From IMG/VR virus record IMGVR_UViG_3300042296_000383, positions 660-64,659 of that record: 64,000 nt of DNA. The stretch is one strand, 5' to 3'. A program made the position numbers and the translations under genes. Source of the stretch: a virus. Taxonomy: Duplodnaviria > Caudoviricetes. The notes beneath the pieces are model-generated. The model made no database searches, was not told the DNA's origin, and worked only from the letters and a program-made list of their open reading frames with translations. Position 1 is the first letter of the stretch. Every line of letters begins with the position of its first letter. This document shows, piece by piece, positions 1 through 59,329 of this stretch.

Positions 1-264
1 AGGCATTACTATACAGTGTGTTACAAGGATATTTCGGGGAGTAGGATTCGGTATATAAGAATATACCCTAAGGACGAATCCATCGGGTACGAAAATACGC
101 ACGAACACCTACGCAAACAAGCACTTTAGCGTTTTTTAACGTTTACTCGTTTTGACACTTTTTTCGGGGAGCGATCGAGAACGTGCACACACAACACAAA
201 GAACGCGTTTTCCGGGACGGGGCCCGCTGGTTATGGGAGAGGCGTATGGCGGAGGGGGTGAGGT

Positions 265-545
265 ATCGTACACGCGCGCGACCCCGCCAATCGAAATCGC
301 TTTTTCCGCGACGGGCGGGGTGCTCTACGCGTGCGCGTTTACCGCGTGCGTGCGCGTATAATCCATCGCGTGCGTGCGCGTGGTAATCCCGCGTAAACAT
401 GTGCGCGTGTTGGTATCCCCGTGCACCGTGCGCGTCCCGCATGCGCGCGCCATGGTACTCCCCGCGTGCAGAATGCGTGCGCGAGGTGGGTATTCGTGCG
501 CGTATCGGGGTAAACGGGCGTGAACGTGCGCGTTCGTGGGGCGTG
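265..545. repeat. Non-coding tract of degenerate GTGCGCG repeats (alternating purine/pyrimidine)
   Basis: About 9 copies of (C)GTGCGCG(T) or close variants between 329 and 535; overlapping ORFs are low-complexity R/A/C/H/T artefacts. Confidence 0.7.
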
Positions 546-982
546 TGGACTCACCCCCATTCGCCATTTCCCGCACCTAAATTTCCCCGCTCCCGTCCCT
601 CTCTATGTGGCGCGCTAGATTACTTCGGGAGGGTGTCAACGCGGCACCTGATTGTGAACTTTTCGCGGCGATTATTTCACGGAATGTTCGCGACAGTCAA
701 CGTTAAGCATTTGTTAAAAACTGTGAGCTATCCTTACTCCCACGTGGGCTGTAGCGCTTTCCGCTCACTTTTTCGCTGCCGTTGTACTTTTGTGCAACTT
801 TGCCTGTGTTTCTCGGGCTTGGTCTTGCTTGCTGTGGTATTTTCGGTGTTTTGAATGGTCAGTGTTTGTTGGTGTTTGCGGCGCTTTCCCTTCTGCGTCT
901 CTAGGTTTTGCTCGGAAAATAAAAAAAGTGCCCGCATAAATTAGGGCCTGCAGAACTATTTCGTGAAATTTCATAAAATAAA

Positions 983-1015
983 TTTGGAATAAGCAAATCG
1001 ATGACCGTAGATTTG
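983..1015 (+). promoter_or_regulatory. Bacteroidota primary-sigma promoter driving the early region
   Basis: TTTG (983-986), 21-nt spacer, TAGATTTG (1008-1015); fits the -33 TTTG / -7 TAnnTTTG consensus. Confidence 0.8.
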
Positions 1016-1261
1016 CCTCCGTCAAACAATGACAAGGGAGATACAGAATGCGCCCCTAGTGTTTATGAGTCCGCGAGGCATGTCATACACACCGAAGCAA
1101 GACAACGTGCTAACACCTGCACACGGTAACTCAAGCAGGTCAGCCCTAAGGTAACAAGGGGACGGGAGGCAGCCCGATAATGTGTTCAACATAACACAGC
1201 GATTTAATTAGCTAAACTGCCCCGAGCCGCATAAATAGTGCGGGAGACGAGACAAGCAACA

Positions 1262-1323
1262 GGCTAGCTGCATAGGGCAGCACGCAACGGCGTAAGGTGG
1301 TTCGAGTCCACCGCTAGCTACTA
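1262..1323 (+). ncRNA. Minimal tRNA-like element (about 59 nt plus CTA)
   Basis: Acceptor GGCTAGC/GCTAGCT+A, T-arm GGTGG-TTCGAGT-CCACC, two mini-hairpins (TGC/GCA, ACGC/GCGT) replacing the D and anticodon arms. Confidence 0.7.
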
Positions 1324-1344
1324 ACCAATTTAAATTTCATTATC

Positions 1345-1617
1345 ATGGCAACAAAGCAATTAGTAAACGCTAACAGTCAATTCTTTACAGACATGACAAG
1401 CGCTGACAGGGTGATTAACGTTAACGGTGGCGACATGCCAATCGGTTACTACAACCTCCTCCTCACTATCAGAGACCTCGGACTCTACAAGGTAGGTCTG
1501 AAGCCTAACCGTCATTGGAAGATTACCGACGTCAAGAAGTACTTCGGTATCAAGGGGAGTGCGGAGTCCATGCTCGAGGAGCTAAACACTATCAAGGACT
1601 TTTTAAAAGCAAAGTAA
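1345..1617 (+). CDS. Early hypothetical protein (90 aa)
   Basis: ORF with A/T-rich leader; first gene of the operon. Confidence 0.8.
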   Translation: MATKQLVNANSQFFTDMTSADRVINVNGGDMPIGYYNLLLTIRDLGLYKVGLKPNRHWKITDVKKYFGIKGSAESMLEELNTIKDFLKAK

Positions 1618-1622
1618 TCTAC

Positions 1623-1661
1623 AGCCCCGCCACGAGAGTGAGCGGGGCTTTGGCGGTATAA
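1623..1661 (+). other. Intergenic hairpin-GCRGTA motif, copy A
   Basis: AGCCCCGC-CACgagaGTG-a-GCGGGGCT then TTGGCGGTATAA. Confidence 0.75.
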
Positions 1662-1681
1662 CCATTTAAATTTTCATTATC

Positions 1682-1972
1682 ATGAGCAACAAGCTATCAA
1701 TTCACGGCGAACTGAACAACTTCATTGACTACTACACGTCTGATGACGAACTGCGCCGCAAAATGCGCGACTGCGTTATTGACTACCTAGAAGAGGTGCG
1801 CGAAGAGCCGCCCACGGTTGTCTTTATCAAGACGGTGTACAAGGACGTTGAGGTGTACGAGAAACACTTTGTAGGCGATTTAGACCCGTGCAAAGAAAAG
1901 TTTCCTCTCACGGAACTGTCGGCGAAGGTGCACAAGTACCAAGCGCTAGGCTGCGTGGTTGAAATTCGTTAA
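1682..1972 (+). CDS. Early hypothetical protein (96 aa)
   Basis: ORF; leader nearly identical to that of 1345. Confidence 0.75.
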   Translation: MSNKLSIHGELNNFIDYYTSDDELRRKMRDCVIDYLEEVREEPPTVVFIKTVYKDVEVYEKHFVGDLDPCKEKFPLTELSAKVHKYQALGCVVEIR

Positions 1973-1977
1973 CTAAC

Positions 1978-2019
1978 AAGCCCCGCCACTACCAAGTGTG
2001 CGGGGCTTTCGCAGTATAA
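1978..2019 (+). other. Intergenic hairpin-GCRGTA motif, copy B
   Basis: AAGCCCCGC-CACTaccaAGTG-t-GCGGGGCTT then TCGCAGTATAA. Confidence 0.75.
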
Positions 2020-2039
2020 AACAATTAATTTATTTCATC

Positions 2040-2213
2040 ATGACAACTTACTTCATCTGCAACACCGACAGCTACGGGCAAAGAACGGGCACCTACAGCG
2101 CTATTCAACTGAGCGAAGGCGACGTGAATATAGACAGCTACGGTAACAAGATACACGGCGGCAAATTTCTCTACGACAGCGAGCTAGAAATTGCGCGAGC
2201 GTGTCAAGATTAA
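2040..2213 (+). CDS. Early hypothetical protein (57 aa; start MTTYFIC)
   Basis: ATG after an A/T-rich leader; the upstream GTG lies inside the hairpin. Confidence 0.7.
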   Translation: MTTYFICNTDSYGQRTGTYSAIQLSEGDVNIDSYGNKIHGGKFLYDSELEIARACQD

Positions 2214-2259
2214 CTGATGAGGCTTGAGTAGCCGAAACACCCTTCGGGGTGTCTTAATC
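2208..2259 (+). ncRNA. Type I hammerhead ribozyme HH1
   Basis: GATTAA-CTGATGA-GGCT/tgagt/AGCC-GAA-ACACCC/ttcg/GGGTGT-C^TTAATC; GUC site, cut after 2253. Confidence 0.95.
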
Positions 2260-2276
2260 AATAAATAATTTTCATC

Positions 2277-2657
2277 ATGAAAGTAGAACTAAACATTGGG
2301 CTTGGTAACAACCCCTTCGACGGCAGCGCAGCAGCGCTTTTAACCTTCAACGTGCTAACCAAGCACGGCGCCTCCAACACAGCCTTCAGACTATCGAAAG
2401 GCGAGTACGTGGGCAGCGGCGAAGATAACATTGTCGCAATCTTTGATTGGGACATCAACCACGACGGGCTATGGAAATTTAACAAGGTAGGATTTCAGAC
2501 CCTCCTAGAAGCCCTAGCGACAATTATGACGCAGGAGTGCATAGCCTTCTACGTGCAGGATTGGAACGACGGCGGGCTAACGTTTGCCCCCGAGTACGAC
2601 GGCGAACGTTATGACTTCGATATTCAATACTTCGAACGTTGGGAGGCACAAGGTTAA
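2277..2657 (+). CDS. Early hypothetical protein (126 aa)
   Basis: ORF lying between HH1 and HH2. Confidence 0.8.
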   Translation: MKVELNIGLGNNPFDGSAAALLTFNVLTKHGASNTAFRLSKGEYVGSGEDNIVAIFDWDINHDGLWKFNKVGFQTLLEALATIMTQECIAFYVQDWNDGGLTFAPEYDGERYDFDIQYFERWEAQG

Positions 2658-2701
2658 CTGATGAGTCCTAAGTGGACGAAACGCCGCGAGGCGTCTTAAC
2701 C
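2652..2701 (+). ncRNA. Type I hammerhead ribozyme HH2
   Basis: GGTTAA-CTGATGA-GTCC/taagt/GGAC-GAA-ACGCC/gcga/GGCGT-C^TTAACC; cut after 2695. Confidence 0.95.
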
Positions 2702-2714
2702 AACACAATCTACA

Positions 2715-2900
2715 ATGACGAAGATTATCATTCTATTCTACCTGTTCACCGGACAGGTTCAGCAGGTAGACGACCTGTACACCGTGCACACCGGCACCGG
2801 CACCTACGAGTATGCCTGCGAAGGCGAGGTGTTCAATTGGATAGAGACGGGCACATTCAGCTACGACGACAGCCTGTGTAACTGCGGCGAAATCAACTAA
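2715..2900 (+). CDS. Early small protein (61 aa), hydrophobic N-terminus
   Basis: ORF starting 19 nt after the HH2 cleavage site. Confidence 0.7.
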   Translation: MTKIIILFYLFTGQVQQVDDLYTVHTGTGTYEYACEGEVFNWIETGTFSYDDSLCNCGEIN

Positions 2901-2915
2901 AAAAACCATACAAAA

Positions 2916-3050
2916 ATGAAAACATTTGCTCTTATCGCGTCACTAGCATGCATGGTGACAAGCGCAGTAATCGCTGACCTGTTCCTGTTCGGGATATCCG
3001 TAGTGTCAGTGTTCAGTTCAATTCTATTAACCTTTCAAAAGACTAAGTAA
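2916..3050 (+). CDS. Small membrane protein (44 aa)
   Basis: MKTFALIASLACMVTSAVIADLFLFGISVVSVFSSILLTFQKTK, translated by hand; fills the gap between genes. Confidence 0.7.
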   Translation: MKTFALIASLACMVTSAVIADLFLFGISVVSVFSSILLTFQKTK

Positions 3051-3051
3051 C

Positions 3052-3330
3052 ATGGACAAATTTGCAAGAATCGACACGGCGACAGGTCGCGGCATGAACG
3101 AGGGCTACTGCGTCAACGACGGCGTGGCTTACTTCGAAAACGAGAGCGACCTTATCGCTTACCTACGCAACGAGTGCAACGTTGATGAGAACAACGAACT
3201 CAGCGACGAGTTCATCTTGAACGAGGCTTATAACGTCGAGACCTACTACTACACCGAGTGGGACGCGGACGATGAGGACACCTACTACATAGAGGTCGAG
3301 GGCAAGTGGCTCGAGGTCCTGCAAGGTTAA
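3052..3330 (+). CDS. Early acidic hypothetical protein (92 aa)
   Basis: ORF, very rich in D/E/Y. Confidence 0.8.
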   Translation: MDKFARIDTATGRGMNEGYCVNDGVAYFENESDLIAYLRNECNVDENNELSDEFILNEAYNVETYYYTEWDADDEDTYYIEVEGKWLEVLQG

Positions 3331-3383
3331 CTGATGAGGCTTAAATAGCCGAAACGTGAGGTTGTGCGCCTCACGTATTAACC
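3325..3383 (+). ncRNA. Type I hammerhead ribozyme HH3
   Basis: GGTTAA-CTGATGA-GGCT/taaat/AGCC-GAA-ACGTGAGG/loop/CCTCACGT-A^TTAACC; GUA site, cut after 3377. Confidence 0.93.
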
Positions 3384-3397
3384 AATATAATTCAATC

Positions 3398-3628
3398 ATG
3401 AATCAGCTAATTACAATCTACATTAACGGTTGTTGGGACGCGGACCATACGGACGCGACCGACACCTCACCTGTACGTATCTTCGAAAAGGGGACTGTTG
3501 TTCAAGTCATCGCAAGTCAGTACGACCAATACATTGAAGACCTCGAGGAGAGGGGATATGACTGCTACCTCTGCCCCGACATGTACGCCAATCCTAAATG
3601 GAACGGTGAAATAATTTTCATAAACTAA
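3398..3628 (+). CDS. Early hypothetical protein (76 aa; start MNQLIT)
   Basis: ATG 20 nt after the HH3 cut. Confidence 0.7.
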   Translation: MNQLITIYINGCWDADHTDATDTSPVRIFEKGTVVQVIASQYDQYIEDLEERGYDCYLCPDMYANPKWNGEIIFIN

Positions 3629-3642
3629 TACCATAAATCACA

Positions 3643-3771
3643 ATGAAAAAAGTTATCGCACTAGCAATCATCATCATCACGCTCGCGTCATGCAGCACCA
3701 AGAAACTTACCCACTCACACTACACCAAGGGGGTCACTAACGGGCAGGACGGCTGCGCTTGGCACCGATAG
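3643..3771 (+). CDS. Small lipoprotein (42 aa)
   Basis: MKKVIALAIIIITLAS-CSTKK...; LASC lipobox, translated by hand. Confidence 0.75.
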   Translation: MKKVIALAIIIITLASCSTKKLTHSHYTKGVTNGQDGCAWHR

Positions 3772-3828
3772 GTTAACTGATGAGGTCTGAGTGACCGAAA
3801 CCTAGGGCACGCGCTCTAGGTCTTAACC
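3771..3828 (+). ncRNA. Type I hammerhead ribozyme HH4
   Basis: GGTTAA-CTGATGA-GGTC/tgagt/GACC-GAA-ACCTAGGGC/acgc/GCTCTAGGT-C^TTAACC; cut after 3822. Confidence 0.95.
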
Positions 3829-3843
3829 AATAAATAATTTGTC

Positions 3844-4218
3844 ATGAGTACAACAACACGCGCTATAGGACAGCGCAATTCATTCACACCGCAGGTAGAG
3901 CCTGCACCATTCAAAGTTAACCGCTTCGAGGTAGCTAGACTAGTGAAAGCACAAACCGACGCCGTGACGAGCGGCGTATGGGACTTCCCCATGGAGCACA
4001 AGTTCGACAACAGCGGCGATATATGGGACGCGGTCAACGCAGGCAAGAGCGTGCAGATGTTCGTGAGACAGTGCATGGTCGAGTTCGGCACCATCACGGG
4101 AGCCTTGCTCGGGAGTCAGTTCAACCACGTGTCCCACAGCAGCAAGCACGCCATCAGAAAGGGTGTGCTGAGAGCGCAGCAGTACAAGCAAATCATCGAA
4201 CAACTAAAAGCAAAGTAA
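3844..4218 (+). CDS. Early hypothetical protein (124 aa)
   Basis: ORF starting 21 nt after the HH4 cut. Confidence 0.8.
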   Translation: MSTTTRAIGQRNSFTPQVEPAPFKVNRFEVARLVKAQTDAVTSGVWDFPMEHKFDNSGDIWDAVNAGKSVQMFVRQCMVEFGTITGALLGSQFNHVSHSSKHAIRKGVLRAQQYKQIIEQLKAK

Positions 4219-4225
4219 TTATACC

Positions 4226-4267
4226 AAGCCCCGCCGCTCCCAAGCGTGCGGGGCTTTGGCGGTAGAA
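4226..4267 (+). other. Intergenic hairpin-GCRGTA motif, copy C
   Basis: AAGCCCCGC-CGCTcccaAGCG-t-GCGGGGCTT then TGGCGGTAGAA. Confidence 0.75.
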
Positions 4268-4290
4268 ACAATTTAAAAAACAAACACAAT

Positions 4291-4665
4291 ATGGGACGTT
4301 CAGTAATGACGCTAAGCGGGGCGCAAATGACCGCATACATCGGAGGAAGCAAAGACTTCGAGTGGGACTATCTTATCGAGGAACTGCAGGAACTCGGGAT
4401 GGAACTCGGGATGAACAAGTCTAGCAGATGGGAGGACAGGGAGGTTCTGATCTTGCTCGAAGGCAACGGAGCCGAGGTTGGAATCGCGGAGTACGGCGAC
4501 GTGATATCTTTCGGCATACGAACCGAGATGGAGGATGACCCGAGCGCGGCACGCTGGATTGACAAGAACGGTCCCGACCTTGTGAAGCTATTCCATAGCT
4601 ACGGCGACCCGATACGCAGCGTCGGCACATTCAGCAACGGAGAAACTGTTTACGAAAAAAAATAA
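4291..4665 (+). CDS. Early hypothetical protein (124 aa; start MGRSVM)
   Basis: ATG after an A-rich leader. Confidence 0.75.
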   Translation: MGRSVMTLSGAQMTAYIGGSKDFEWDYLIEELQELGMELGMNKSSRWEDREVLILLEGNGAEVGIAEYGDVISFGIRTEMEDDPSAARWIDKNGPDLVKLFHSYGDPIRSVGTFSNGETVYEKK

Positions 4666-4669
4666 TACC

Positions 4670-4912
4670 ATGAACATTAACGTATTTATCACACCGAACA
4701 AGGTGTACGCAACGTACCGCAAAACAATCTGCCACAAAGAAGATTTCAATCCTAATGATTACGAGGCTAAGCAAGGGTCAATCACGCGGGCACAGTCAAT
4801 AGCCTTCAGTCATGGGACTCAACACGGTTTATGCTTATTAAAACGAATTGAGATTGAGGAAGAATGGGGAGACGATGAATTGTTTAATTATCTAGAAACT
4901 AATATCCATTAA
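4670..4912 (+). CDS. Hypothetical protein (80 aa), AT-rich
   Basis: ORF in operon. Confidence 0.7.
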   Translation: MNINVFITPNKVYATYRKTICHKEDFNPNDYEAKQGSITRAQSIAFSHGTQHGLCLLKRIEIEEEWGDDELFNYLETNIH

Positions 4913-4916
4913 CAAC

Positions 4917-5270
4917 ATGAGCGGAAAAAAGTTTTACAACAGCGGCAGGATTGCCAACGTGTTCAGTCATCAGGACAGGCAGCGCCTGCTACACCACCAC
5001 TCGATGACCTACAAGATTTTTATGGAGCTAAGCGAGACAGGCTACTGGATGAAGCCTTCACTTATCGCAGAGTTCGAGGCGTGGAGCGACGAGGTCGAGA
5101 TACGCATGGGCAAGAAGCCCGACAGCGACTACAGCTACAAGGTGCTAGAGAACTGCGCGGACTACGGACCGCTCACGCTGGCGGAATACTTCGAGGGCTG
5201 CGCTAGGCACACGCGAGCGCTGTGCGAGAGCCTTGGGGCGGAGTACAACGACCACCTCCCGAAGATTTAA
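4917..5270 (+). CDS. Hypothetical protein (117 aa)
   Basis: ORF in operon. Confidence 0.75.
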   Translation: MSGKKFYNSGRIANVFSHQDRQRLLHHHSMTYKIFMELSETGYWMKPSLIAEFEAWSDEVEIRMGKKPDSDYSYKVLENCADYGPLTLAEYFEGCARHTRALCESLGAEYNDHLPKI

Positions 5271-5280
5271 TTTATTTGGT

Positions 5281-5328
5281 TACGCCACCGCCTTCGCTGA
5301 GAAATCAGCGGGGGTTTTGGCGGTATAA
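5281..5328 (+). other. Intergenic hairpin-GCRGTA motif, copy D
   Basis: CCTTCGCTGAgaaaTCAGCGGGGG then TTTTGGCGGTATAA. Confidence 0.7.
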
Positions 5329-5340
5329 ACAAACACAGAC

Positions 5341-5838
5341 ATGAAAGAAATAAAAGCAAGCGACCTCAAGGTCGGCGTCGTGTATCACGACACACCGAAT
5401 GAAAACAAGATAGCGTTCGTCTTTGTAAAGAGAACAGAGGACGCGCTGTGGTTTGTCCCACTATCCCCTTTAGATGCTCTCAAGGCGGCGCTGTACCAGA
5501 CAGACGAGAGCGGCATGATTTCGTTTGTGGATTTAGACATCTCTAAATGGTACTATGACGAGGAGCGATGCAGCCCCGACAGGATGCCCAACGGACTGAA
5601 TGACTGGGCAGAGATTCACCATGAAATTGTCAGCGTAATTACAGAAACGCTTGAACGTCCAGAGAGTGAGTGGGGGGACAACCTGAGATGGTATATAGAC
5701 CAGAGCGGAACAGGCGGGATGTACGAGCTAGGTATTGACCTCACTTGGGCGTTCGCTTACATGCACCAAGACACCGTGTGGGGGGAAGACTTGGACTGGT
5801 CCGATACCCTAGAGGAGTTTATTAACTCAAGCCTTTAA
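5341..5838 (+). CDS. Hypothetical protein (165 aa)
   Basis: ORF in operon. Confidence 0.75.
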   Translation: MKEIKASDLKVGVVYHDTPNENKIAFVFVKRTEDALWFVPLSPLDALKAALYQTDESGMISFVDLDISKWYYDEERCSPDRMPNGLNDWAEIHHEIVSVITETLERPESEWGDNLRWYIDQSGTGGMYELGIDLTWAFAYMHQDTVWGEDLDWSDTLEEFINSSL

Positions 5839-5849
5839 CATTCAGTGAC

Positions 5850-5889
5850 GACCTCGCCCGCATCCACGGGCGGGGTTTTCGCGGTATAA
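5850..5889 (+). other. Intergenic hairpin-GCRGTA motif, copy E
   Basis: GACCTCGCCCGcatccaCGGGCGGGGTT then TTCGCGGTATAA. Confidence 0.7.
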
Positions 5890-5901
5890 ACAAATACAAA
5901 C

Positions 5902-6231
5902 ATGAAAAGATACTTCACGTACCAGAAACAGCGCATGACATTCGAGAGCGCCATGACCCACGTCATAATCGAGGAGACCAACAATCAGACTCAGTCACTG
6001 AAGCTAAGGAAGGGGGTGCACCTCTCGGACTGGATGATGACCAAGGAAGAAGGCGAGGCGAGGCTTCAAGAGATTGCCAAGTACGACTGCGACGGCGCCA
6101 CCATAGTAGACGGAGCCGTGTCCAACGAGGGCAGCAGATACCAACTGCACAGCATCGAGAATCTGAGCGAGATTGAATTGCTTAAAATGTCGCGCGTGCT
6201 ACCACTAACATTTAAAGTATACCAGCCATGA
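5902..6231 (+). CDS. Hypothetical protein (109 aa)
   Basis: ORF; ATGA overlap with the next gene. Confidence 0.75.
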   Translation: MKRYFTYQKQRMTFESAMTHVIIEETNNQTQSLKLRKGVHLSDWMMTKEEGEARLQEIAKYDCDGATIVDGAVSNEGSRYQLHSIENLSEIELLKMSRVLPLTFKVYQP

Positions 6232-6464
6232 ACTACGACGTAATCATACACACCGACGCAAGCGGGCACGCCGCCGTCATCGAGGGCGTGTCCCTCAAGG
6301 GGATAAGATGGCTCGAGGACATGGGCACCACCGAGAACGGTAACCGATACCTCATAGGCAAGACCACCCACAAGGACTGGGAGAGCAGGTGCCACAACAA
6401 CGAAATGCTTTACACAATAGCCCGCCACGAGGCGACGGCACTAGAGATAAGGGGGAGAATATGA
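6228..6464 (+). CDS. Hypothetical protein (78 aa)
   Basis: ATGA-coupled ORF. Confidence 0.7.
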   Translation: MNYDVIIHTDASGHAAVIEGVSLKGIRWLEDMGTTENGNRYLIGKTTHKDWESRCHNNEMLYTIARHEATALEIRGRI

Positions 6465-6688
6465 CAAGGAAAAAACAATGGACACCTATCACCATGACGA
6501 TAGGCAGGGGAGTCGTGGAGTGGGACGACAGCGAGTTCTTGAGCTGGTGCATCTACTACCAAGAAGAAGTGAGAAACTTTTACAAACTGTACCTGCGCGA
6601 GACCAACGACAGGGCCACCACCTACATGGAATTTGCCATGGACATATACACCGACCACAAGGACATGCTAACACCAACACTTAACTAA
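6461..6688 (+). CDS. Hypothetical protein (75 aa; start MTRKKQW)
   Basis: ATGA-coupled ORF. Confidence 0.7.
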   Translation: MTRKKQWTPITMTIGRGVVEWDDSEFLSWCIYYQEEVRNFYKLYLRETNDRATTYMEFAMDIYTDHKDMLTPTLN

Positions 6689-6689
6689 G

Positions 6690-6866
6690 ATGAGAGTAAT
6701 ATCAAAACAGGGGGAGTTCAAGACAACGAACTCCATAACCACGTTCGAGGGCGACGTAACGGTCCGAGAGGGCGACACGTACAAGACCATCAGCGGCACG
6801 CACTACCACCACAACTATCAGTGGGGAGCACACTGGAACATAAACGGAGGTCGGATATGGAAATAA
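6690..6866 (+). CDS. Hypothetical protein (58 aa, MRVISKQGEF...)
   Basis: Translated by hand; fills the gap between genes. Confidence 0.6.
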   Translation: MRVISKQGEFKTTNSITTFEGDVTVREGDTYKTISGTHYHHNYQWGAHWNINGGRIWK

Positions 6867-7036
6867 AGCACACCATACTTACCGTATTCCTGATGTACTA
6901 CGCGAGCCTGCTGTTGCTGGCAGCCCGATGGTCCAAGTCCAAGCCCGTCTGGAGGGGAATAATGATAGCCCTGCCTATCCTGCTGGGAATAGCGACGGCG
7001 TGCATAACATGGAGGTCGCTATGCGCTGGATTATAA
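6857..7036 (+). CDS. Small two-TM membrane protein (59 aa)
   Basis: Two hydrophobic stretches. Confidence 0.6.
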   Translation: MEIKHTILTVFLMYYASLLLLAARWSKSKPVWRGIMIALPILLGIATACITWRSLCAGL

Positions 7037-7188
7037 TAGTGCTGAGCATGACGCTGCCCGTGTTCATGCTGGTCCGATACCATCAGAGGGGTGGGAGGGC
7101 GGTGTTCTACGTGCTGATCCTGATCACGATGGTGGCTATCATACGCCCGCACATAAAGCGATCGCTTAACAGGGACACGTGGAGGTAA
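7021..7188 (+). CDS. Small two-TM membrane protein (55 aa; MRWIIIV...)
   Basis: Two hydrophobic stretches with a basic loop. Confidence 0.55.
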   Translation: MRWIIIVLSMTLPVFMLVRYHQRGGRAVFYVLILITMVAIIRPHIKRSLNRDTWR

Positions 7189-7384
7189 TATTATTTACAA
7201 CCATAAAGCACCGAGATATTAACAGGCTCTATAAGAAAGCGAGACCTCATTGATAATATCAATCGATGTTATTGCTCTTATGTGGCGCCTGTGCTGTAAC
7301 TTTCAGCAGACAAAGCCAACACTTGTTAAACAACGCAAGTGTATGTCATTCAATCAATTATTAATATTATATTAGCAAAAAATT

Positions 7385-7783
7385 ATGTACATTATACCGA
7401 CAACAGCACTTCAATGGCTCGACACACTGCCGAGCGAGGTGCGAGAGAAAGCCCTGAGACACTCAGTGTCCAGCTCATTACAGGAAGACTGCAACTCACT
7501 CTACGACGCGCTCGCCCTTGCGTTTGTGTGGGAGAACACCCCCGAGGGGGACGAGTACTGGAGGGGGATTGCCAACGAGTACACCCCGAACTTCTTGGGC
7601 TTCATCGTCAGGTTCAGGGACGCCATCAACCTGTCCTACGTGGCAAGGTTCGGTAACATAAAGCGGCAGACCTTGGAGGACGCGCTGAGGGATGAGGACA
7701 AGCAGACTCCCGAGATGAACCAGAAAGTAATGACGCTATTCTGCGAGATGCAGAGGGCGTTGAATGAAATAAACTCACTATAA
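7385..7783 (+). CDS. Hypothetical protein, possible C-terminal HTH regulator
   Basis: INLSYVARFGNIKRQTLEDAL resembles a Cro/Xre HTH; follows a non-coding gap with promoter-like TATATTAG. Confidence 0.55.
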   Translation: MYIIPTTALQWLDTLPSEVREKALRHSVSSSLQEDCNSLYDALALAFVWENTPEGDEYWRGIANEYTPNFLGFIVRFRDAINLSYVARFGNIKRQTLEDALRDEDKQTPEMNQKVMTLFCEMQRALNEINSL

Positions 7784-7793
7784 AACAAACACA

Positions 7794-8039
7794 ATGACAA
7801 AACAAACTGCGGTTGAATGGTTAGTTAAAAGTTTAGAACATGTTGGTCTAGACTATCCACTTGGACAACACACTGATATAATTGTCCAAGCCAAAGCAAT
7901 GGAGCGTGAGCAGATTATTGATACGGTATTTGAAATTTTATACAGTGAATTTGAGGGTCAAGTTGCTAAAAAAGATTTATTGTATAGTGCTGAACAATAC
8001 TACATCGAAACATACGGAGGAGATGACAAGGGAGTCTAG
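7794..8039 (+). CDS. Small phage protein (KQTAVEWL...AKAMEREQI type)
   Basis: ORF, AT-rich relative to neighbours. Confidence 0.7.
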   Translation: MTKQTAVEWLVKSLEHVGLDYPLGQHTDIIVQAKAMEREQIIDTVFEILYSEFEGQVAKKDLLYSAEQYYIETYGGDDKGV

Positions 8040-8247
8040 GGCACTGTCCATAATCCAGTTCTTCATCGACAACCCCATCCCGTACAGGAGGGCGGCTCGG
8101 GTGTTCAGACCACAACGGGAGGGCAGGCTCATGATGCGAGTCTTCAAACAGAACAACGACTACGAGATCGAGGACCTCGACGCGTGGGAGGAAATAATAA
8201 AACAGGTTAAAGAGTATGGCAAGAAAGTCAAGAAAGAGAAGGGCTAA
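8023..8247 (+). CDS. Hypothetical protein (74 aa; start MTRESRAL)
   Basis: ORF in operon. Confidence 0.6.
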   Translation: MTRESRALSIIQFFIDNPIPYRRAARVFRPQREGRLMMRVFKQNNDYEIEDLDAWEEIIKQVKEYGKKVKKEKG

Positions 8248-8644
8248 GTCGGGCAGGTACCGACTACCCAAGGAGAGCAGGTCCAGAGGCCCGTCGTTAC
8301 TGGCAAGGCTGAGGGAGGAGCAACGCGTGGCGCTGACCGTGAGGTTGAACAGCGCCAAGATAGAGCAGAGTCTGGTGCGTACCGCAAAGAAAATTATAGC
8401 ACGTGCAGACAACCCCTCGTACAGGACGCCGCTGAGAATGTCGGTGTACTTCGACCACCTGTTCGTCACCATCGAGCCAGACCCGCAGAGGCGGAGGCGA
8501 AAACTGGTGAGGATATTCAGGCTCAGGCCCACGATTAGTGACGTGATGTGGGTGAGGTTGATATGGAAAGAGCAGAGCGCCATGGCCGTGAGGTCGAGAA
8601 GGCTCGGCATAAAGACAGGTCTAATAAATAAACAAATAACATAG
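8216..8644 (+). CDS. Very basic hypothetical protein (142 aa)
   Basis: R/K-rich ORF filling the gap before Erf. Confidence 0.5.
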   Translation: MARKSRKRRAKSGRYRLPKESRSRGPSLLARLREEQRVALTVRLNSAKIEQSLVRTAKKIIARADNPSYRTPLRMSVYFDHLFVTIEPDPQRRRRKLVRIFRLRPTISDVMWVRLIWKEQSAMAVRSRRLGIKTGLINKQIT

Positions 8645-8645
8645 C

Positions 8646-9284
8646 ATGAATCTATTACAGAAACTACACGCGATACAGACCAAGGTGAGGGCTGTATCAA
8701 AAGACGAGACGACCAAGAGTCAGTACAACCCTAATGGTTTTAACTACGTGTCTGGCGACAAGATAATCGGCGTGATCCGTCCGCTTATGGACGAGATGGG
8801 CGTGATATTAAAGTCCGAGGTCATCGATATGCACAACAGTACCCAGCAGTACACCACGTCAAAGGGCGCCACAAAGAATGAGGTGCTCACCAATCTAAGG
8901 ATGAGGATGACTTGGATAGACACCGAGTCTGGAGAACGCGAGGAGTGCATGTGGGGGGCGAACGGGATGAACGACTGGGACAAGGGATTCGGCAGCGCCG
9001 TGACCTACGGAATCAGGTACTTCATACTCAAGTCATTCCTAGTATCAACCGACGCGGACGATGTCGACGGTATCATAAGGGACGTGGACACGAGACCATC
9101 AGACCAGCACAAGTCTGCCCCGCAGCCCGAGCCTATGGTCGAGAGGCCATGGCTGGAAGACGACGCCGAGGCGATGAAAAAGGTGACCGCCTTCATGAAA
9201 AATGGTGGGTCGATCGACGACGTGTACACCAAGTTCAGAATGAAGAACGCTACAAAGCAGGAGTTAATTAATCTAAACAAATAA
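8646..9284 (+). CDS. erf: ERF-family single-strand annealing recombinase
   Basis: N-terminal LLQKLHAIQ; signature DKGFGSAVTYGIRY...DADD. Confidence 0.85.
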   Translation: MNLLQKLHAIQTKVRAVSKDETTKSQYNPNGFNYVSGDKIIGVIRPLMDEMGVILKSEVIDMHNSTQQYTTSKGATKNEVLTNLRMRMTWIDTESGEREECMWGANGMNDWDKGFGSAVTYGIRYFILKSFLVSTDADDVDGIIRDVDTRPSDQHKSAPQPEPMVERPWLEDDAEAMKKVTAFMKNGGSIDDVYTKFRMKNATKQELINLNK

Positions 9285-9286
9285 AC

Positions 9287-9757
9287 ATGGAACAGGTACA
9301 ACTATTCAACCAAGGACTCCTAACCAAGGACGGTATCAAGGACCTATCAAACCAGATCATCAACTCCCTAGACGAGGGGAACTTCAACCCGCTAGACTTT
9401 AAACTTGCAGCCAAGGGCTTCGAGAAGTTGATCGAGTCTGTCAAGGAGCAGATAGACGAGGCGGCCATGACCGAGGCGGCCAAGTACGGGCAGAAGACGT
9501 TCTCATACAAGGGGTCAGAGATTCAGGTGGTGGACAACCTCGGCGTGTCTTACGACTACAGCGAGTGCAACCACCCGCAGTACAACGCGGTGATGGAAGA
9601 GTTCAACAGGATAAGCAAGCTCAAGAAGGACTTAGAGGGTGAGCTTCAGGCTACCAAGACATCCCGAACGATGATCGACGAGAGCACGGGCGAGGTGGTG
9701 ACGGTGTACCCCCCAAGGAAGCGGTCAAAGAGCGGCATCAAGATCACTATAAAATAA
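9287..9757 (+). CDS. Phage protein adjacent to the recombinase
   Basis: ORF in operon; DESTGEV motif. Confidence 0.75.
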   Translation: MEQVQLFNQGLLTKDGIKDLSNQIINSLDEGNFNPLDFKLAAKGFEKLIESVKEQIDEAAMTEAAKYGQKTFSYKGSEIQVVDNLGVSYDYSECNHPQYNAVMEEFNRISKLKKDLEGELQATKTSRTMIDESTGEVVTVYPPRKRSKSGIKITIK

Positions 9758-9766
9758 GGAGGCAAC

Positions 9767-10000
9767 ATGAGACTGATGAAAGGTAAAGTAAAGATCAAGC
9801 CTGTGCTGGAGAAAGCAAGCGAGCTGATCGATGTCGAGCAGAGACGCGTGACCAAGGCGGTCATCGTGGACACGGGCGAGTGCGAGGAGGTGGAGGTCGG
9901 ATGGACGGTGTACATTAAGCCGACAGGCTTGAAGATGTTCATGGCCAGCGAGGACTCCACACTCATAATGAACGAGTCCGATATACTGGCAAGGGTATGA
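9767..10000 (+). CDS. groES: GroES/Cpn10-like protein
   Basis: GKVKIKP...VEVGWTVY...LIMNESDILARV pattern. Confidence 0.7.
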   Translation: MRLMKGKVKIKPVLEKASELIDVEQRRVTKAVIVDTGECEEVEVGWTVYIKPTGLKMFMASEDSTLIMNESDILARV

Positions 10001-10311
10001 ACACATCACCGTGTAAGTTCTACAGGGCAGGCTCCATAGCGAGCCGCGCCCTTGACTTTGTCGACGCAGAGCTAGGCCAGCTGGTCTACACCTACCCCGC
10101 AGACAACAACGAGAACCTTGCGCTGGTAATTGACGAACGTGGAATGTTCGTCACTACCTTTGTGAGTTTCGTTAAGGTGACTGACGTGGGAAGGGAGGAG
10201 AGGATCGAGCGCATAGTTCACGACATACTAAAGATGTCCAAGGTGTATGTCCCTACCTTGTTGACGGACCAGTTCGAGAGGGACGTGATTAACATTAAAA
10301 GAAAGCCATGA
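9997..10311 (+). CDS. Hypothetical protein (104 aa)
   Basis: ATGA-coupled ORF. Confidence 0.7.
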   Translation: MNTSPCKFYRAGSIASRALDFVDAELGQLVYTYPADNNENLALVIDERGMFVTTFVSFVKVTDVGREERIERIVHDILKMSKVYVPTLLTDQFERDVINIKRKP

Positions 10312-10685
10312 AAAAGAAAACAGTTATCATACTATGCATCGTCGCCGTTATCTCTATAACAATCGCGGCGGTAATGAACGTGCCATGGGGCAGACCAAAG
10401 ATGTCGCCGACCGACCAGCTGATACAGGACGAGATCGACCACATCAAGCAGAGGGTGGAGATGAGAGACGCCGTGATCAAGGAGCTGATAATAGAGCTAC
10501 GGATGCGCGACTCCCTCATCGCCAACATACAGGCAGGTAAAACTTCTATAACAAATAAATACTACTACGATGAAAAGTTTATTCTCAGCTCTAGCGATAG
10601 CGCTAACCGTGTCCTTCGCGTCAACAACGAGCGCATGTTTATCTCAGACTACTTCGGCGGCAGATACGCTCCCCGATCTAAGTAA
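10308..10685 (+). CDS. N-terminal TM plus coiled-coil protein (i-spanin-like)
   Basis: KKK-hydrophobic anchor then heptad-rich segment; overlaps the next gene. Confidence 0.55.
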   Translation: MKKKTVIILCIVAVISITIAAVMNVPWGRPKMSPTDQLIQDEIDHIKQRVEMRDAVIKELIIELRMRDSLIANIQAGKTSITNKYYYDEKFILSSSDSANRVLRVNNERMFISDYFGGRYAPRSK

Positions 10686-11010
10686 CGACCAAGTATTCAA
10701 CCTGTGCTACAGCTCACTGAACTACTGGTGGGGGTACTCTACCGTGCAGGAACAGATGATCGAGCAGTACATCAAGAAGATACAGGCATACGAGAAGATC
10801 ACGGGCATACAGACACAGAGCGTCGAGGATCTGGAGAGGCTGTACAAGATCCGAGAGGCACAGATTGCCGAGAAGGATCGTCAGCTAGAGGAGATGAACT
10901 CGGCGTTAAAAAAAGCCAACAGGCGCAAGTCTACCATAAAAGTTGGTATGTTTGTCATCACACCTGCAGCCCTGTTAGCGGGGGTGTACATAGGAACCAA
11001 ACTAAAATAA
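10570..11010 (+). CDS. Signal peptide, coiled coil and C-terminal TM protein (spanin-like)
   Basis: Signal peptide with TSAC, coiled coil, hydrophobic C-terminus; starts inside the previous gene. Confidence 0.5.
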   Translation: MKSLFSALAIALTVSFASTTSACLSQTTSAADTLPDLSNDQVFNLCYSSLNYWWGYSTVQEQMIEQYIKKIQAYEKITGIQTQSVEDLERLYKIREAQIAEKDRQLEEMNSALKKANRRKSTIKVGMFVITPAALLAGVYIGTKLK

Positions 11011-11014
11011 AGTC

Positions 11015-11308
11015 ATGAACGTAGGACAAGAAGTTGTATGCATCAAGGATCACTCCCAAGGCATAGTCAGGGAGGGCGAGCTTTATACTGTGCAGGATGT
11101 AACGGAGACCCCATGCTGCGGCGCGGCGCTTATAGACATAGGCAAGAGACACAGCAGCATGGTCATCATGTGCACGTGCGGGAATAAGTTCCCAATCGAT
11201 GTGCCGATTCATTACCTAGCCGCTTACCTGTTCGCACCTCTGGATGACCTGTTCAACACGGAGATCTCGGAGCTGATGTCCGAGGTTGAGACGACAATAG
11301 AATTATAA
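11015..11308 (+). CDS. Hypothetical protein with Cys motifs
   Basis: VGQEVVCI, PCCG and CTCG motifs. Confidence 0.7.
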   Translation: MNVGQEVVCIKDHSQGIVREGELYTVQDVTETPCCGAALIDIGKRHSSMVIMCTCGNKFPIDVPIHYLAAYLFAPLDDLFNTEISELMSEVETTIEL

Positions 11309-11326
11309 ACCAACACATATACAACA

Positions 11327-11551
11327 ATGATAAATATTGAAAGCAAACCAAAGAAGACGGTCCAGTATTTTGACGGGTCGATCACACTAGACAAGACGTA
11401 CACGTTCACCGTGTCCAAGTGTATTAACGGCGAGGTCAAGTACACCGTCGAGCTGCACGATACCCTACCAGAAGTACTGGCCGAGGTTATCATAGGAGGG
11501 ATCCTTAACCACTGCACCACCATAGGGATAGGACAAGTTGAAAATAAATAA
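11327..11551 (+). CDS. Hypothetical protein (74 aa)
   Basis: ORF. Confidence 0.65.
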   Translation: MINIESKPKKTVQYFDGSITLDKTYTFTVSKCINGEVKYTVELHDTLPEVLAEVIIGGILNHCTTIGIGQVENK

Positions 11552-11559
11552 CAGACACA

Positions 11560-11970: not shown

Positions 11971-11981
11971 GGTGGCTTTTT
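11956..11981. terminator. Terminator at the convergence of the + and - transcription blocks
   Basis: AAGCCATCC-gaata-GGGTGGCTT-TTT. Confidence 0.75.
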
Positions 11982-59227: not shown

Positions 59228-59329
59228 TAATCAGGACAGGATTCGAACCTGTACGGTATCTTTTGGATTTACATCAGCTTTAGGCTGGAATGCGAATACC
59301 ACCTGCGTCTACCATTCCGCCACCTGACT
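59228..59329 (-). ncRNA. tRNA-like RNA lacking a canonical anticodon arm
   Basis: AGTCAGG/CCTGATT acceptor, GCGGAATGGTAGACGC D-arm, ACAGG-TTCGAAT-CCTGT T-arm. Confidence 0.75.

What the first reader, a model, noticed from the sequence alone, without database searches (positions are those of the whole stretch)
1623..5889. Five copies of an unassigned hairpin plus TTT(G/C)GC(G/A)GTA(T/G)AA motif
Seen at 1623, 1978, 4226, 5281 and 5850: a GC stem ending GCGGGG(G/C/T), a variable but paired top (three copies have a one-nt bulge at the same position), and a conserved 3' tail. The U run is only 3-4 nt, weak for a terminator, and the tail lacks the TA of TAnnTTTG. It occupies the same slot as the hammerheads. 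Known: new ribozyme classes and RAGATH motifs were found through shared genetic context with hammerhead and twister ribozymes. Inference: a nuclease site, an unknown self-cleaving RNA, a leaky terminator or a phage-specific promoter.
Basis: partly seen in the sequence, partly recalled or inferred. Interest (0 to 1): 0.72.

Follow-up and report, generated by a model that had tools for sequence, protein, structure and literature searches.

The report
Conserved hairpin-plus-box spacer between phage genes
Five copies of a strong RNA hairpin followed by a conserved short box sit between the small early genes of a lake-water phage, in the same slots that self-cleaving hammerhead ribozymes occupy, and the same unnamed element turns up in many unrelated phages, so it is probably a new kind of gene-separating signal whose exact action is still open.

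Summary
Exactly five copies lie on the + strand at 1624-1661, 1980-2019, 4228-4267, 5291-5328 and 5852-5889. Each is a GC hairpin, then 3-4 T, then SGCRGTAKAA, and the next ATG follows 12-23 nt later. No Rfam family matches.

The hairpin covaries and uses sense-strand G-U pairs, so it acts as RNA. The element is not private to this phage:
- A pattern scan of viral contigs gave 54 matches, against 14 and 9 for permuted tails.
- A hairpin-constrained scan of 596 Gb of bacterial genomes gave 41 stretches, roughly what I estimate for chance.

Close relatives carry the hairpin-box in front of genes that here follow a hammerhead. An unrelated 75-kb phage also combines both elements.

The early block has host-type promoters only at its start. 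The late strand uses ordinary terminators with 7-8 T. In about a third of instances a 5' box pairs with the tail.

My best reading (0.38) is an RNA punctuation signal. The hairpin caps the upstream mRNA, and a cut at or next to GUA frees the downstream leader, as the hammerheads do.

The main rival (0.25) is a hairpin pause or attenuator with an ops-like box. A ribozyme is unlikely (0.03).

No RNA data were available, so the mechanism is inferred.

The parts
1624..1661 (+). Copy 1. Hairpin 1624-1648 (7-bp lower stem, bulged A, 3-bp upper stem, GAGA loop). Tail TTTGGCGGTATAA at 1649-1661. Upstream stop at 1615-1617, next ATG at 1682.
   Evidence: (55.4 bits)
1980..2019 (+). Copy 2. Hairpin 1980-2006 (bulged T). 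Tail TTTCGCAGTATAA at 2007-2019. Next ATG at 2040.
   Evidence: (55.6 bits). One population contig's homology starts at 2017, right after the GTA.
4228..4267 (+). Copy 3. Hairpin 4228-4254 (bulged T). Tail TTTGGCGGTAGAA at 4255-4267. Next ATG at 4291. The 8 letters at 4258-4265 equal the first 8 of the E. coli ops element.
   Evidence: (60.7 bits); ops letters
5286..5328 (+). Copy 4. Hairpin 5291-5314 (10 pairs, two U-G, GAAA loop). Tail TTTTGGCGGTATAA at 5315-5328. Next ATG at 5341. It is the only copy in the window with a 5' box (ACCGCC, within 5286-5292 by my own count) that can pair with GGCGGT of the tail.
   Evidence: 45.8 bits; -10.0 kcal/mol. Orthologues keep the pairing as CACCA/TGGTG and CACTA/TGGTG.
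5852..5889 (+). Copy 5. Hairpin 5852-5875 (9 pairs, one U-G). Tail TTTTCGCGGTATAA at 5876-5889. Next ATG at 5902.
   Evidence: (48.0 bits)
2214..3801 (+). Context: four type I hammerhead cores (2214-2238, 2658-2682, 3331-3355, 3777-3801) in the neighbouring intergenic gaps. They are positionally interchangeable with the hairpin-box in relatives.
979..1015 (+). Context: host-type (Bacteroidota-style) promoter boxes TAAATTTG (979-986) and TAGATTTG (1008-1015, with TTTG 21 nt upstream). The next TAnnTTTG on the + strand is at 10155.
1262..1323 (+). Context: tRNA-like element (7-bp acceptor-like stem, T-arm) in the slot before the first early gene. The leader after it is nearly identical to the leader after copy 1.
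   Evidence: Not called by ARAGORN or Rfam.

Best explanation
The element is an RNA-level punctuation signal inside one long early transcript. The GC hairpin forms in the nascent sense RNA and stays as a protective 3' cap on the upstream message. The conserved box that follows (UUU-NNN-R-GUA) places an endonucleolytic cut at or next to GUA. That cut releases the downstream message with the same short A-rich leader (UAAMC...) that the hammerheads and the tRNA-like element produce in the neighbouring slots.

The cutting enzyme is inferred to be a host or phage nuclease, not the RNA itself. In the subset where a 5' box pairs with the tail, the fold looks like a stem plus one free A, the layout read by enzymes that trim tRNA 3' ends. 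Because the elements are short, conserved and repeated, they also serve as joints at which gene cassettes are swapped.

Shown: the hairpin, its strand, its place, its interchangeability with hammerheads, the conserved tail, the lack of internal promoters and the poor U run.

Inferred: the cut itself, its position and the enzyme.
For: 1. RNA hairpin.
- 86.1% of 180 cells are paired, and 7 of 10 pairs change on both sides. 0 of 500 shuffles reach this, and it is far above the slid controls.
- On 47 distinct rows: 86.0% paired, 8 of 10 pairs (this alignment was fitted to the model).
- U-G pairs occur on the sense strand, in 17 of 47 and 7 of 47 rows at two stem positions. On the other strand these would be C-A mismatches.

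2. Same slot as RNA-cleaving elements.
- All 5 copies lie between co-directional genes, 5-20 nt after a stop and 12-23 nt before an ATG.
- In relatives G011 and G013, the homologue of gene 2277-2657 follows a hairpin-box where this phage has a hammerhead. The homologues of 2715-2900 and 2916-3330 also follow a hairpin-box in G011.
- The unrelated 75-kb phage G007 has a type I hammerhead and then 3-4 hairpin-boxes in its terminal small-gene block.

3. Leader homology starts at the same point after all three element types...GCTAGCTAC|TAACCA, GTC|TTAACCA and GGCGGTA|TAACCA.
- If cut after GUA, the leaders would be 15-26 nt, against 19-23 nt after the hammerheads.
- One population contig's homology begins at 2017, just after the GTA.

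4. Not an efficient terminator-plus-promoter unit.
- The U run is 3-4, while the late strand of the same genome has hairpins with 7-8 T directly followed by TATATTTG.
- No TAnnTTTG lies on the + strand between 1008 and 10155.

5. The tail takes part in RNA pairing in a subset.
- Flank-tail duplex energy averages -5.97 against -5.11 kcal/mol for permuted flanks (sd 0.18); 0 of 200 permutations are as low.
- 31 of 102 instances reach -8 or lower.
- I read six matched pairs by eye from the sequences listed, among them CCACG with CGTGG and CCACT with AGTGG.
- By exact 5-mer count, own variant against other variants: CCACG 5 of 8 against 2 of 121; CCACT 3 of 4 against 1 of 125; CTACC 1 of 3 against 1 of 126. 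The remaining three (CCACC, CCGCC, CTGCC) are not enriched: CCACC 3 of 22 against 12 of 107, CCGCC 1 of 14 against 6 of 115, CTGCC 3 of 19 against 6 of 110.
- The duplex most often stops at the U of GUA (12 of 31 by my reading).

6. Spread beyond one host group, which fits a universal enzyme.
- 54 matches in viral contigs against 14 and 9 for permuted tails. A CCCC...GGGG arm is present in 31 of 54 against 0 of 14 and 1 of 9.
- Cultured Pseudomonas phages carry hairpin plus TTTG(G/C)CAGTA.
Against: - There are no RNA data at all, so no end has been seen.
- A loosely specific nuclease would not by itself explain a tail conserved over about 10 letters when it is unpaired in two thirds of instances, including 4 of the 5 copies here.
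- The commonest K letter in the wider set is G (GUAG). As I recall it, that fits the RNase E preference for U two letters after the cut less well.
- The shared start of leader homology may only mark where one module ends and the next begins.
- 'Same slot' may simply mean that intergenic gaps are where any signal can sit.
- Some instances follow a major capsid gene, a classic place for a plain attenuator.
- The cross-phylum unity is partly made by my own search patterns. The Pseudomonas-type set (hairpin with TTNNNT loop plus TTTGSCAGTA) and the Bacteroidota-type set (TTTGGTGGTAKAAAC) share for certain only hairpin-TTT-NNN-R-GTA.
Confidence: 0.38

Rival explanations
1. Hairpin-stabilised transcription pause or attenuator with an ops-like box. 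The nascent hairpin stalls the host RNA polymerase about 9-12 nt downstream. The box, exposed as non-template DNA in the stalled bubble, is read by a NusG-family factor or another elongation factor. The polymerase then reads through the long, poorly translated early operon (anti-polarity).
For: - Copy 3 and several relatives have GGCGGTAG, the first 8 letters of the E. coli ops element. The most invariant phage letters, G-T-A, fall on ops G5-T6-A7, the loop that RfaH reads.
- Bacteroides opsX sites are about 40 bp: a nascent-RNA pause hairpin directly followed by a 12-nt non-template box, with the start codon at +9 or +41/42. Some have an 'escape duplex' that extends the hairpin toward the RNA 3' end. 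This is the same layout as hairpin, box and ATG 12-23 nt later, and as the facultative 5' box pairing.
- One promoter region serves about 9 kb of small genes, so read-through is needed.
- The short U run followed by G/C argues for a pause rather than release.
Against: - The less biased scan shows GGTGGTA is the commonest box (16 of 49), with C at ops position 3 in a minority. Pseudomonas phages have GCCAGTA.
- The pause-inducing TG at ops positions 11/12 is absent.
- C3:G8-type pairing inside the box is possible in only about half of the variants I listed by eye.
- No NusG-like domain was found in this phage or in 5 other motif-bearing phages (0 of 6).
- ops sites sit once in an operon leader, not five times between genes or after a capsid gene.
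- The match was found after I compared the tail with many known motifs, so chance resemblance is a real risk.
Confidence: 0.25
2. An ordinary leaky intrinsic terminator that grades expression along the operon. The tail is conserved only because it is the start of the downstream leader and because cassettes are copied around.
For: - GC hairpin plus 3-4 U directly after a stop codon.
- The short-loop hairpin GCCCCTTAACTGGGGC is common in cultured phages: in the spread listing, most listed rows match only the hairpin part of the query, and three listed Klebsiella phage rows are annotated 'terminator'.
- TTT+SGCR followed by a second T run is a frequent terminator form in viral contigs.
- Some instances follow major capsid genes.
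Against: - The tail is enriched 4-6 fold over permuted tails in unrelated phages.
- GTA keeps a fixed distance from the hairpin in copies not selected by my pattern.
- Five real terminators with no internal promoters would silence about 35 downstream genes.
- The same genome uses 7-8 T where it does terminate.
Confidence: 0.12
3. A promoter for a phage-specific RNA polymerase or sigma factor, with the start site in or just after the tail. The hairpin would be the terminator of the previous unit, making this a PeSL-like terminator/promoter cassette.
For: - It has the same genome logic as PeSL cassettes: a stem-loop just upstream of a promoter, then the start codon, among shuffled ORFans.
- The tail is always upstream of an ATG.
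- The Y-R step and the A/T-rich end resemble start-site regions (inference).
Against: - No T7-like polymerase was found (0 of 6 genomes). No DxDxD or D[FYW]DxD catalytic motif occurs in any large ORF. No Pfam or PHROG polymerase hit was found.
- Only 25-36 nt separate the hairpin from the ATG, too short for a two-box host promoter. No TAnnTTTG is present.
- In other phages the start codon overlaps the last A of the tail or lies 4 nt after it.
- Sense-strand G-U pairs and flank-tail pairing point to RNA.
Confidence: 0.07
4. A DNA-level joint only: the end of a mobile gene cassette, or a recombination hot spot, with no role in RNA.
For: - Gene order in the early block is permuted between G000, G011 and G013, with breaks at the intergenic elements.
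- Population contigs break at hammerhead cores and, once, right after the GTA of copy 2.
- The phage encodes an ERF-family annealing protein at 8646-9284.
- A hairpin plus a site 10 nt beyond its foot recalls the right end of IS200/IS605 elements (recalled).
Against: - No Y1 transposase in 5 genomes.
- Only one hairpin per junction.
- The orientation is strictly co-directional with transcription. Sense-strand G-U pairs imply that an RNA fold, or a one-strand fold, is selected.
- Recombination use does not exclude an RNA role.
Confidence: 0.07
5. A new self-cleaving ribozyme.
For:
- Independent of host type.
- GUA matches the hammerhead cleavage triplet used at 3331-3390.
Against: - Loops and hairpin tops vary freely. 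The only invariant unpaired letters are UUU and R-GUA.
- There is no conserved junction or pseudoknot, and flank-tail pairing is present in only a third of instances.
- No CUGAUGA...GAAA partner in cis or in trans anywhere in the genome.
- No hit to any ribozyme family at E up to 10 at these sites.
Confidence: 0.03

Closest known systems
Hammerhead (type I) and tRNA-like processing elements in the same operon
   Same: Same intergenic slots, the same downstream leader, and interchangeable in front of orthologous genes in relatives. Both leave a structured 3' end on the upstream RNA.
   Different: No catalytic core and no tRNA arms. If it is cut, a protein must do it.
Bacteroides opsX and E. coli ops sites (recruitment sites for the NusG paralogues UpxY and RfaH)
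   Same: A nascent-RNA hairpin directly followed by a short sense-strand box, then a start codon close by. The box core G-T-A(-G) is shared, and GGCGGTAG is identical over 8 letters in copy 3.
   Different: The 3' half of ops (the pause TG) is missing. The commonest phage box is GGTGGTA. There are five copies per operon instead of one leader copy. No paralogue gene was found in the phages.
PeSL cassettes of T4-like phages (Arbiol 2010, Comeau 2014)
   Same: A conserved stem-loop plus regulatory box between small ORFan early genes, tied to modular shuffling.
   Different: A PeSL holds a full sigma70-type -35/-10 promoter and a Shine-Dalgarno sequence. Here there is room for neither, and no host promoter boxes are present. 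This phage's late strand does have PeSL-like terminator-plus-TATATTTG units.
RNase III sites between the early genes of phage T7 (recalled; no paper read here)
   Same: Hairpins that separate early cistrons of one long transcript and stay as 3' caps. The subset with 5' box pairing forms two stems around an internal loop.
   Different: The helices are shorter (13-19 bp in all), and two thirds of instances lack the lower stem.
Intrinsic terminators with a short or split U run
   Same: GC hairpin plus UUU. TTT-SGCR-TTTT forms are common in viral contigs.
   Different: The second half is GTA-KAA, not U-rich, and it is conserved. The genome's own terminators have 7-8 T.

Membership tests
Any Rfam family (including hammerhead, twister, pistol, hatchet, RAGATH motifs, preQ1) | Covariance-model score at or near the family's gathering score | tested here: not met
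   At gathering scores the only hit in the window is a tRNA at 59228-59329. At E up to 10 over 1-12000, no hit overlaps any of the five copies.
Intrinsic (factor-independent) terminator | GC-rich hairpin directly after a gene | tested here: met
Intrinsic (factor-independent) terminator | U-rich tract of about 7-9 nt after the stem | tested here: not met
   3-4 T, then G/C-rich SGCRG. The consensus scan (at least 5 T in 8) did not call them. The late-strand terminators of the same genome have 7-8 T.
Intrinsic (factor-independent) terminator | Release of RNA by RNA polymerase at the site | not testable with these tools
   Needs Term-seq or in vitro transcription.
ops / opsX (NusG-paralogue recruitment site) | Sense-oriented box in a transcribed non-coding stretch upstream of genes | tested here: met
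ops / opsX (NusG-paralogue recruitment site) | Box GCGGTAGC (E. coli) or YGCGNAGCR (Bacteroides) able to form a small non-template hairpin | tested here: inconclusive
   GGCGGTAG is present in copy 3 only. The other copies have T at position 8, and the wider set is mostly GGTGGTA.
ops / opsX (NusG-paralogue recruitment site) | Consensus pause letters (TG at ops 11/12) | tested here: not met
   Positions 11/12 are A-C or C-C; requirement taken.
ops / opsX (NusG-paralogue recruitment site) | Upstream nascent-RNA pause hairpin (Bacteroides type) | tested here: met
ops / opsX (NusG-paralogue recruitment site) | A cognate NusG paralogue | tested here: not met
   PF02357 was found in 0 of 6 phage genomes, while the control rang in 11 of 14 genomes. 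A host-encoded factor cannot be tested because the host is unknown.
PeSL terminator/promoter cassette | Stem-loop just upstream of a two-box host promoter, then ribosome site and ATG | tested here: not met
   No TAnnTTTG lies between 1008 and 10155 on the + strand, and the hairpin-to-ATG gap is 25-36 nt.
PeSL terminator/promoter cassette | Association with ORFan shuffling between close relatives | tested here: met
Self-cleaving ribozyme | Conserved catalytic core of unpaired nucleotides held by several helices | tested here: not met
   One helix, or two in a third of cases. Only UUU and R-GUA are invariant.
Self-cleaving ribozyme | Cleavage without protein | not testable with these tools
   Needs a cleavage assay.

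The most novel reading that the evidence does not exclude
The hairpin-box is a previously unnamed, widespread class of phage intercistronic RNA signal that does the job of a self-cleaving ribozyme by other means. It would be a compact hairpin plus UUU-NNN-R-GUA tag, sometimes closed by an ACCACC/GGUGGU stem into a mini-helix with one free A. A universal host RNA-end-processing enzyme would cut it. Phages could then swap ribozyme, tRNA mimic and hairpin-box freely as equivalent 'commas' between gene cassettes.
Probability: 0.25. Interest if true: 0.8.

Novelty: new variant of a known kind. Interest (0 to 1): 0.62.

Why it matters
If the element is a processing or read-through signal, it gives a third, protein-dependent partner to the ribozymes and tRNA mimics that phages use to cut long early transcripts into units. 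It would also explain how unrelated ORFan genes can be moved as ready-to-express cassettes.

It is short, easy to spot and present in cultured Pseudomonas phages, so its action can be tested directly. A named motif would also improve the annotation of phage intergenic regions, where it is now either ignored or called a terminator.

If the ops-like reading is right, it would be the first case I know of in which phages carry portable recruitment sites for host elongation factors.

Tried and rejected
Ideas rejected:
- T7-like polymerase promoter: PF00940 found in 0 of 6 genomes. The 14 control genomes did not ring either, so this is a weak negative.
- crAss-type virion polymerase promoter: no D[FYW]DxD or DxDxD motif in any large ORF, and the large proteins have no polymerase hit. 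The phi14:2 preprint says its early transcripts have no common upstream motif (passages). Its supplementary files were not seen.
- Trans-acting hammerhead: no CTGANGA...GAAA unit with arms complementary to the tail.
- Host rRNA-leader boxA-like site: considered from memory. It is not supported, because the motif is at chance level in bacterial genomes (41 stretches in 596 Gb, mostly coding or plain terminators by eye).
- Sigma54, sigma70 -35/-10, ECF and Bacteroidota -33/-7 readings: checked by eye. No consistent second box was found.
- Shared neighbouring gene: flanking ORFs of instances in different phages do not cluster.
- Y1 transposase ends: 0 of 5 genomes.
- General 5' flank pairing: marginal in the first set. 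The mean best helix was 4.70 against 4.55, with 44 of 500 permutations as high; helices of 5 or more numbered 30 against 24, p about 0.02. It was clearer in larger sets.

Searches that found nothing:
- Literature by sequence: nothing relevant.
- Earlier scan notes by sequence and by words: nothing.
- Near-identical DNA in GenBank phages: none.
- Distant search with copy 3: only chance-level pieces.
- RNA evidence: no RNA holder listed for window 900-7200, so expression and RNA ends could not be looked at. The laid runs were DNA contigs only.

Cautions:
- The hairpin test was too lax, so I replaced it with stricter counts.
- The set still held bacterial chance hits. One search dropped loci L059-L122 and L141-L257.
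- Tail conservation in alignment A2 is largely forced by my own search pattern.
- Supplementary tables and figures of PMC11685472, which hold the full opsX sequences, were not seen. I used only the letters printed in its main text.

Full report
WHAT IS THERE

The window is bases 660-64659 of a 64,659-bp virus record, estimated 97% complete. Lake-water metagenomes hold its DNA. Its large genes lie on the - strand. They include a terminase, a portal, virion proteins and a crAss-type muzzle protein.

The first 12 kb of the + strand is a block of about 40 small, mostly overlapping or closely packed ORFs. Ten of them were scanned. Only an ERF-family annealing protein (8646-9284) and one PHROG of unknown function were recognised.

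The five claimed copies are real.
- The tail TTTSGCRGTAKAA occurs 5 times, all on the + strand, against 0.46 expected. There are none elsewhere in the genome.
- A covariance model finds the same five and nothing else.
- Each copy has a GC hairpin of 9-11 pairs, 3-4 T, the box, and then an A-rich leader of 12-23 nt before the next ATG.
- Rfam has no family for it.

THE HAIRPIN IS SELECTED AS A SENSE-STRAND FOLD

I aligned 18 copies from this phage, two close relatives (G011, G013) and a distant crAss-like relative (G014).
- 86.1% of cells pair and 7 of 10 pairs change on both sides. 0 of 500 shuffles reach this, and it is well above the slid controls.
- Orthologous copies keep the tail and leader letter for letter while the upper stem flips between CAC/GTG and CGC/GCG and the loop changes freely.
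- U-G pairs are common at two stem positions (17 and 7 of 47 distinct rows). They would be mismatches on the other strand.

IT IS NOT PRIVATE TO THIS PHAGE

- The pattern GGGGNTTTSGCRGTAKAA matches 54 times in the viral contig collection. Two permuted-tail controls give 14 and 9.
- A complementary CCCC arm is present in 31 of 54 real matches, against 0 of 14 and 1 of 9 control matches.
- The hairpin-constrained pattern gives only 41 stretches in 596 Gb of bacterial genomes. Most look like coding sequence or plain terminators, and a few lie on Bacteroidota contigs that look like phage.
- From the control counts I estimate that the viral collection is some 25-50 times smaller. On that estimate the element is strongly enriched in phages.
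- Of the 48 distinct hairpin-bearing matches listed, 26 show same-strand ORFs on both sides. A further 13 show only the upstream one, often because the locus ends or the next ORF is short. Seven lie inside an opposite-strand ORF of 200 aa or more and look like chance hits.
- The flanking proteins do not cluster, apart from those shared by close relatives.
- Other phages carry one or two copies, while this lineage carries four to six.
- A less biased scan shows the commonest tail is TTTGGTGGTA(K)AAAC. CGTGG, GTCAG, AGTGG, GGTAG and GGCGG are variants.
- Cultured Pseudomonas phages (Psp6, Torfinnsbu, DDSR119, phiPto-bp6g, PHB09) have a short-loop hairpin followed by TTTG(G/C)CAGTA, or TTCTCCAGTA in PHB09. 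A Shine-Dalgarno-led gene follows.
- The part common to all sets is hairpin, TTT, three free letters, a purine, then GTA.
- The unity of the two sets is therefore likely but not proven, because my patterns selected for it.

CONTEXT IN THIS GENOME

- Host-type promoter boxes stand at 979-1015. The next TAnnTTTG on the + strand is at 10155.
- No phage polymerase was recognised. The early block is therefore most simply one host-transcribed operon.
- Its first 5 kb are punctuated by a tRNA-like element (1262-1323), five hairpin-boxes and four type I hammerheads.
- On the late strand, hairpins with 7-8 T are followed at once by TATATTTG. The phage thus uses normal terminator-promoter units where it wants them.
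- The early hairpins, with 3-4 T and no promoter after them, must be read through.

INTERCHANGEABILITY

- Gene order in the early block is permuted between G000, G011 and G013.
- The homologue of gene 2277-2657 follows a hammerhead here and a hairpin-box in G011 and G013. The homologues of 2715-2900 and of 2916-3330 follow a hairpin-box in G011.
- G007 is a 75-kb phage with no detectable protein similarity to this one. It starts its terminal small-gene block with a type I hammerhead that has the same GGTTAA/TTAACC stem I, and continues with hairpin-boxes.
- In lake metagenomes, contigs diverge at the hammerhead cores. One contig's homology starts at 2017, right after the GTA of copy 2, and the R position of copy 1 varies G/A.
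- Leaders after the tRNA-like element, the hammerheads and the hairpin-boxes start alike (TAACCA...) and have similar lengths.

THE TAIL CAN PAIR WITH A 5' BOX

In about a third of 102 viral instances, the 20 nt before the hairpin hold a complement of the tail.
- By eye from the sequences, the matched pairs are ACCACC/GGUGGU, CCACG/CGUGG, CCACU/AGUGG, CUACC/GGUAG, ACCGCC/GGCGGU and CUGCC/GGCAG.
- By exact 5-mer count only three are enriched in their own variant. These are CCACG (5 of 8 against 2 of 121), CCACU (3 of 4 against 1 of 125) and CUACC (1 of 3 against 1 of 126). The other three are not enriched.
- The excess over permuted flanks is clear.
- The duplex most often ends at the U of GUA, leaving the A free.
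- Some of these groups are probably related to each other, so the number of independent events is smaller than the number of instances.
- In the window only copy 4 has this pairing. Its orthologues keep it through a change on both sides, CGCCA/UGGCG to CACCA/UGGUG.

HOW IT MOST LIKELY WORKS

The facts point to an RNA-level, read-through signal that stands where RNA-cutting elements stand. I therefore favour (0.38) a processing and 3'-capping site. The hairpin protects the upstream message, and a nuclease cuts at or beside GUA to free the standard leader.

The fold with the 5' box resembles a stem plus a free A, which is what tRNA 3'-end enzymes read (established knowledge, recalled). The same phage uses true tRNA mimics in this slot. 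The cut and the enzyme are inference only.

The main rival (0.25) is a hairpin-stabilised pause with an ops-like box.
- The E. coli ops core and the phage box share G-T-A at the positions that RfaH reads. Copy 3 matches 8 of 8 (passages of PMC5995543).
- Bacteroides opsX sites are a pause hairpin plus a 12-nt box plus a nearby start codon, sometimes with an extending 'escape duplex' (sections 6, 9 and 10 and passages of PMC11685472).
- Against it: GGTGGTA is the commoner box, the pause letters are missing, there are five copies per operon, and no NusG-like gene is in the phages.

The remaining rivals are a plain leaky terminator (0.12), a promoter (0.07), a DNA-only joint (0.07) and a ribozyme (0.03).

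COMPARISON AND NOVELTY

The genome logic is that of PeSL cassettes of T4-like phages: a stem-loop and a regulatory box between shuffled ORFans (abstract listings; passages of PMC4122927). There is, however, no promoter in the box.

I found no name for this element in Rfam. I found no printed match to its letters in the paper library. The literature not held there, and supplements, could still contain it.

I class it as a new variant of a known kind: a conserved-box, terminator-like hairpin used as an intercistronic signal. Interest is moderate to high. The element is real, widespread, tied to ribozymes and directly testable in cultured phages, but its mechanism is not settled here.

Noticed in passing
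window 1262-1323 (+): tRNA-like element with a 7-bp acceptor-like stem (1262-1268 with 1313-1319) and a perfect T-arm, but tiny D and anticodon hairpins. ARAGORN and Rfam do not call it. The leader after it is almost identical to the leader after hairpin-box copy 1.
   Followed up: partly
window 979-1015 (+): Two overlapping host-type promoter candidates: TAAATTTG, and TAGATTTG with TTTG 21 nt upstream. They stand in front of a roughly 330-nt leader. No further TAnnTTTG occurs on the + strand until 10155.
   Followed up: partly
window 38881-59159 (- strand), e.g. 53875, 44848, 49904: Late-strand units of a GC hairpin with 7-8 T directly followed by TATATTTG-type promoter boxes. These are PeSL-like terminator/promoter cassettes, in contrast with the early hairpin-boxes.
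   Followed up: partly
window 13702-34425 (- strand): The phage has a crAss-type muzzle protein, but none of its large virion ORFs (1948, 1415, 1233, 826, 821 aa) carries a DxDxD polymerase motif or any polymerase family hit. It may be a crAss-like phage without a recognisable virion RNA polymerase.
   Followed up: partly
window 8646-9284 (+): ERF-family single-strand annealing protein in the early block. It is a plausible agent of short-homology cassette shuffling.
   Followed up: no
window 2651-2685, 3323-3356, 3770-3801 (population data): In four lake metagenome runs, many contigs share only the hammerhead core and then run on into unlike sequence on both sides. Their stem III hairpins differ, but the same GTCTTAACCAA follows. 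The ribozymes are therefore shared joints between different cassettes in the population.
   Followed up: partly
L132 (G007) reverse strand, about 590-660 nt from the genome end: An unrelated, AT-rich 75-kb phage has a type I hammerhead with the same GGTTAA/TTAACC stem I in the leader of its first early gene. Further on it has an ORF made of a long run of TGCAGTG(A/G)T-type repeats (Cys-Ser-Asp/Gly repeats).
   Followed up: no
loci L143, L152, L158, L162 and about 25 others: A large family of viral contigs shares a conserved intergenic unit: hairpin GCCCC...GGGGC, then TTTGGCGTTTTCC, then ACCCGGAGAATTCCAC..ATG. This looks like a terminator with a split T run fused to a conserved ribosome-site leader.
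   Followed up: no
L259, L261, L262, L008 (Pseudomonas-type instances): Upstream of the short-loop hairpin these phages also share a C/A-rich stretch (AACCAACCCCGCCACCCACA-like) right after the stop codon. The conserved unit there is thus about 45 nt long.
   Followed up: no
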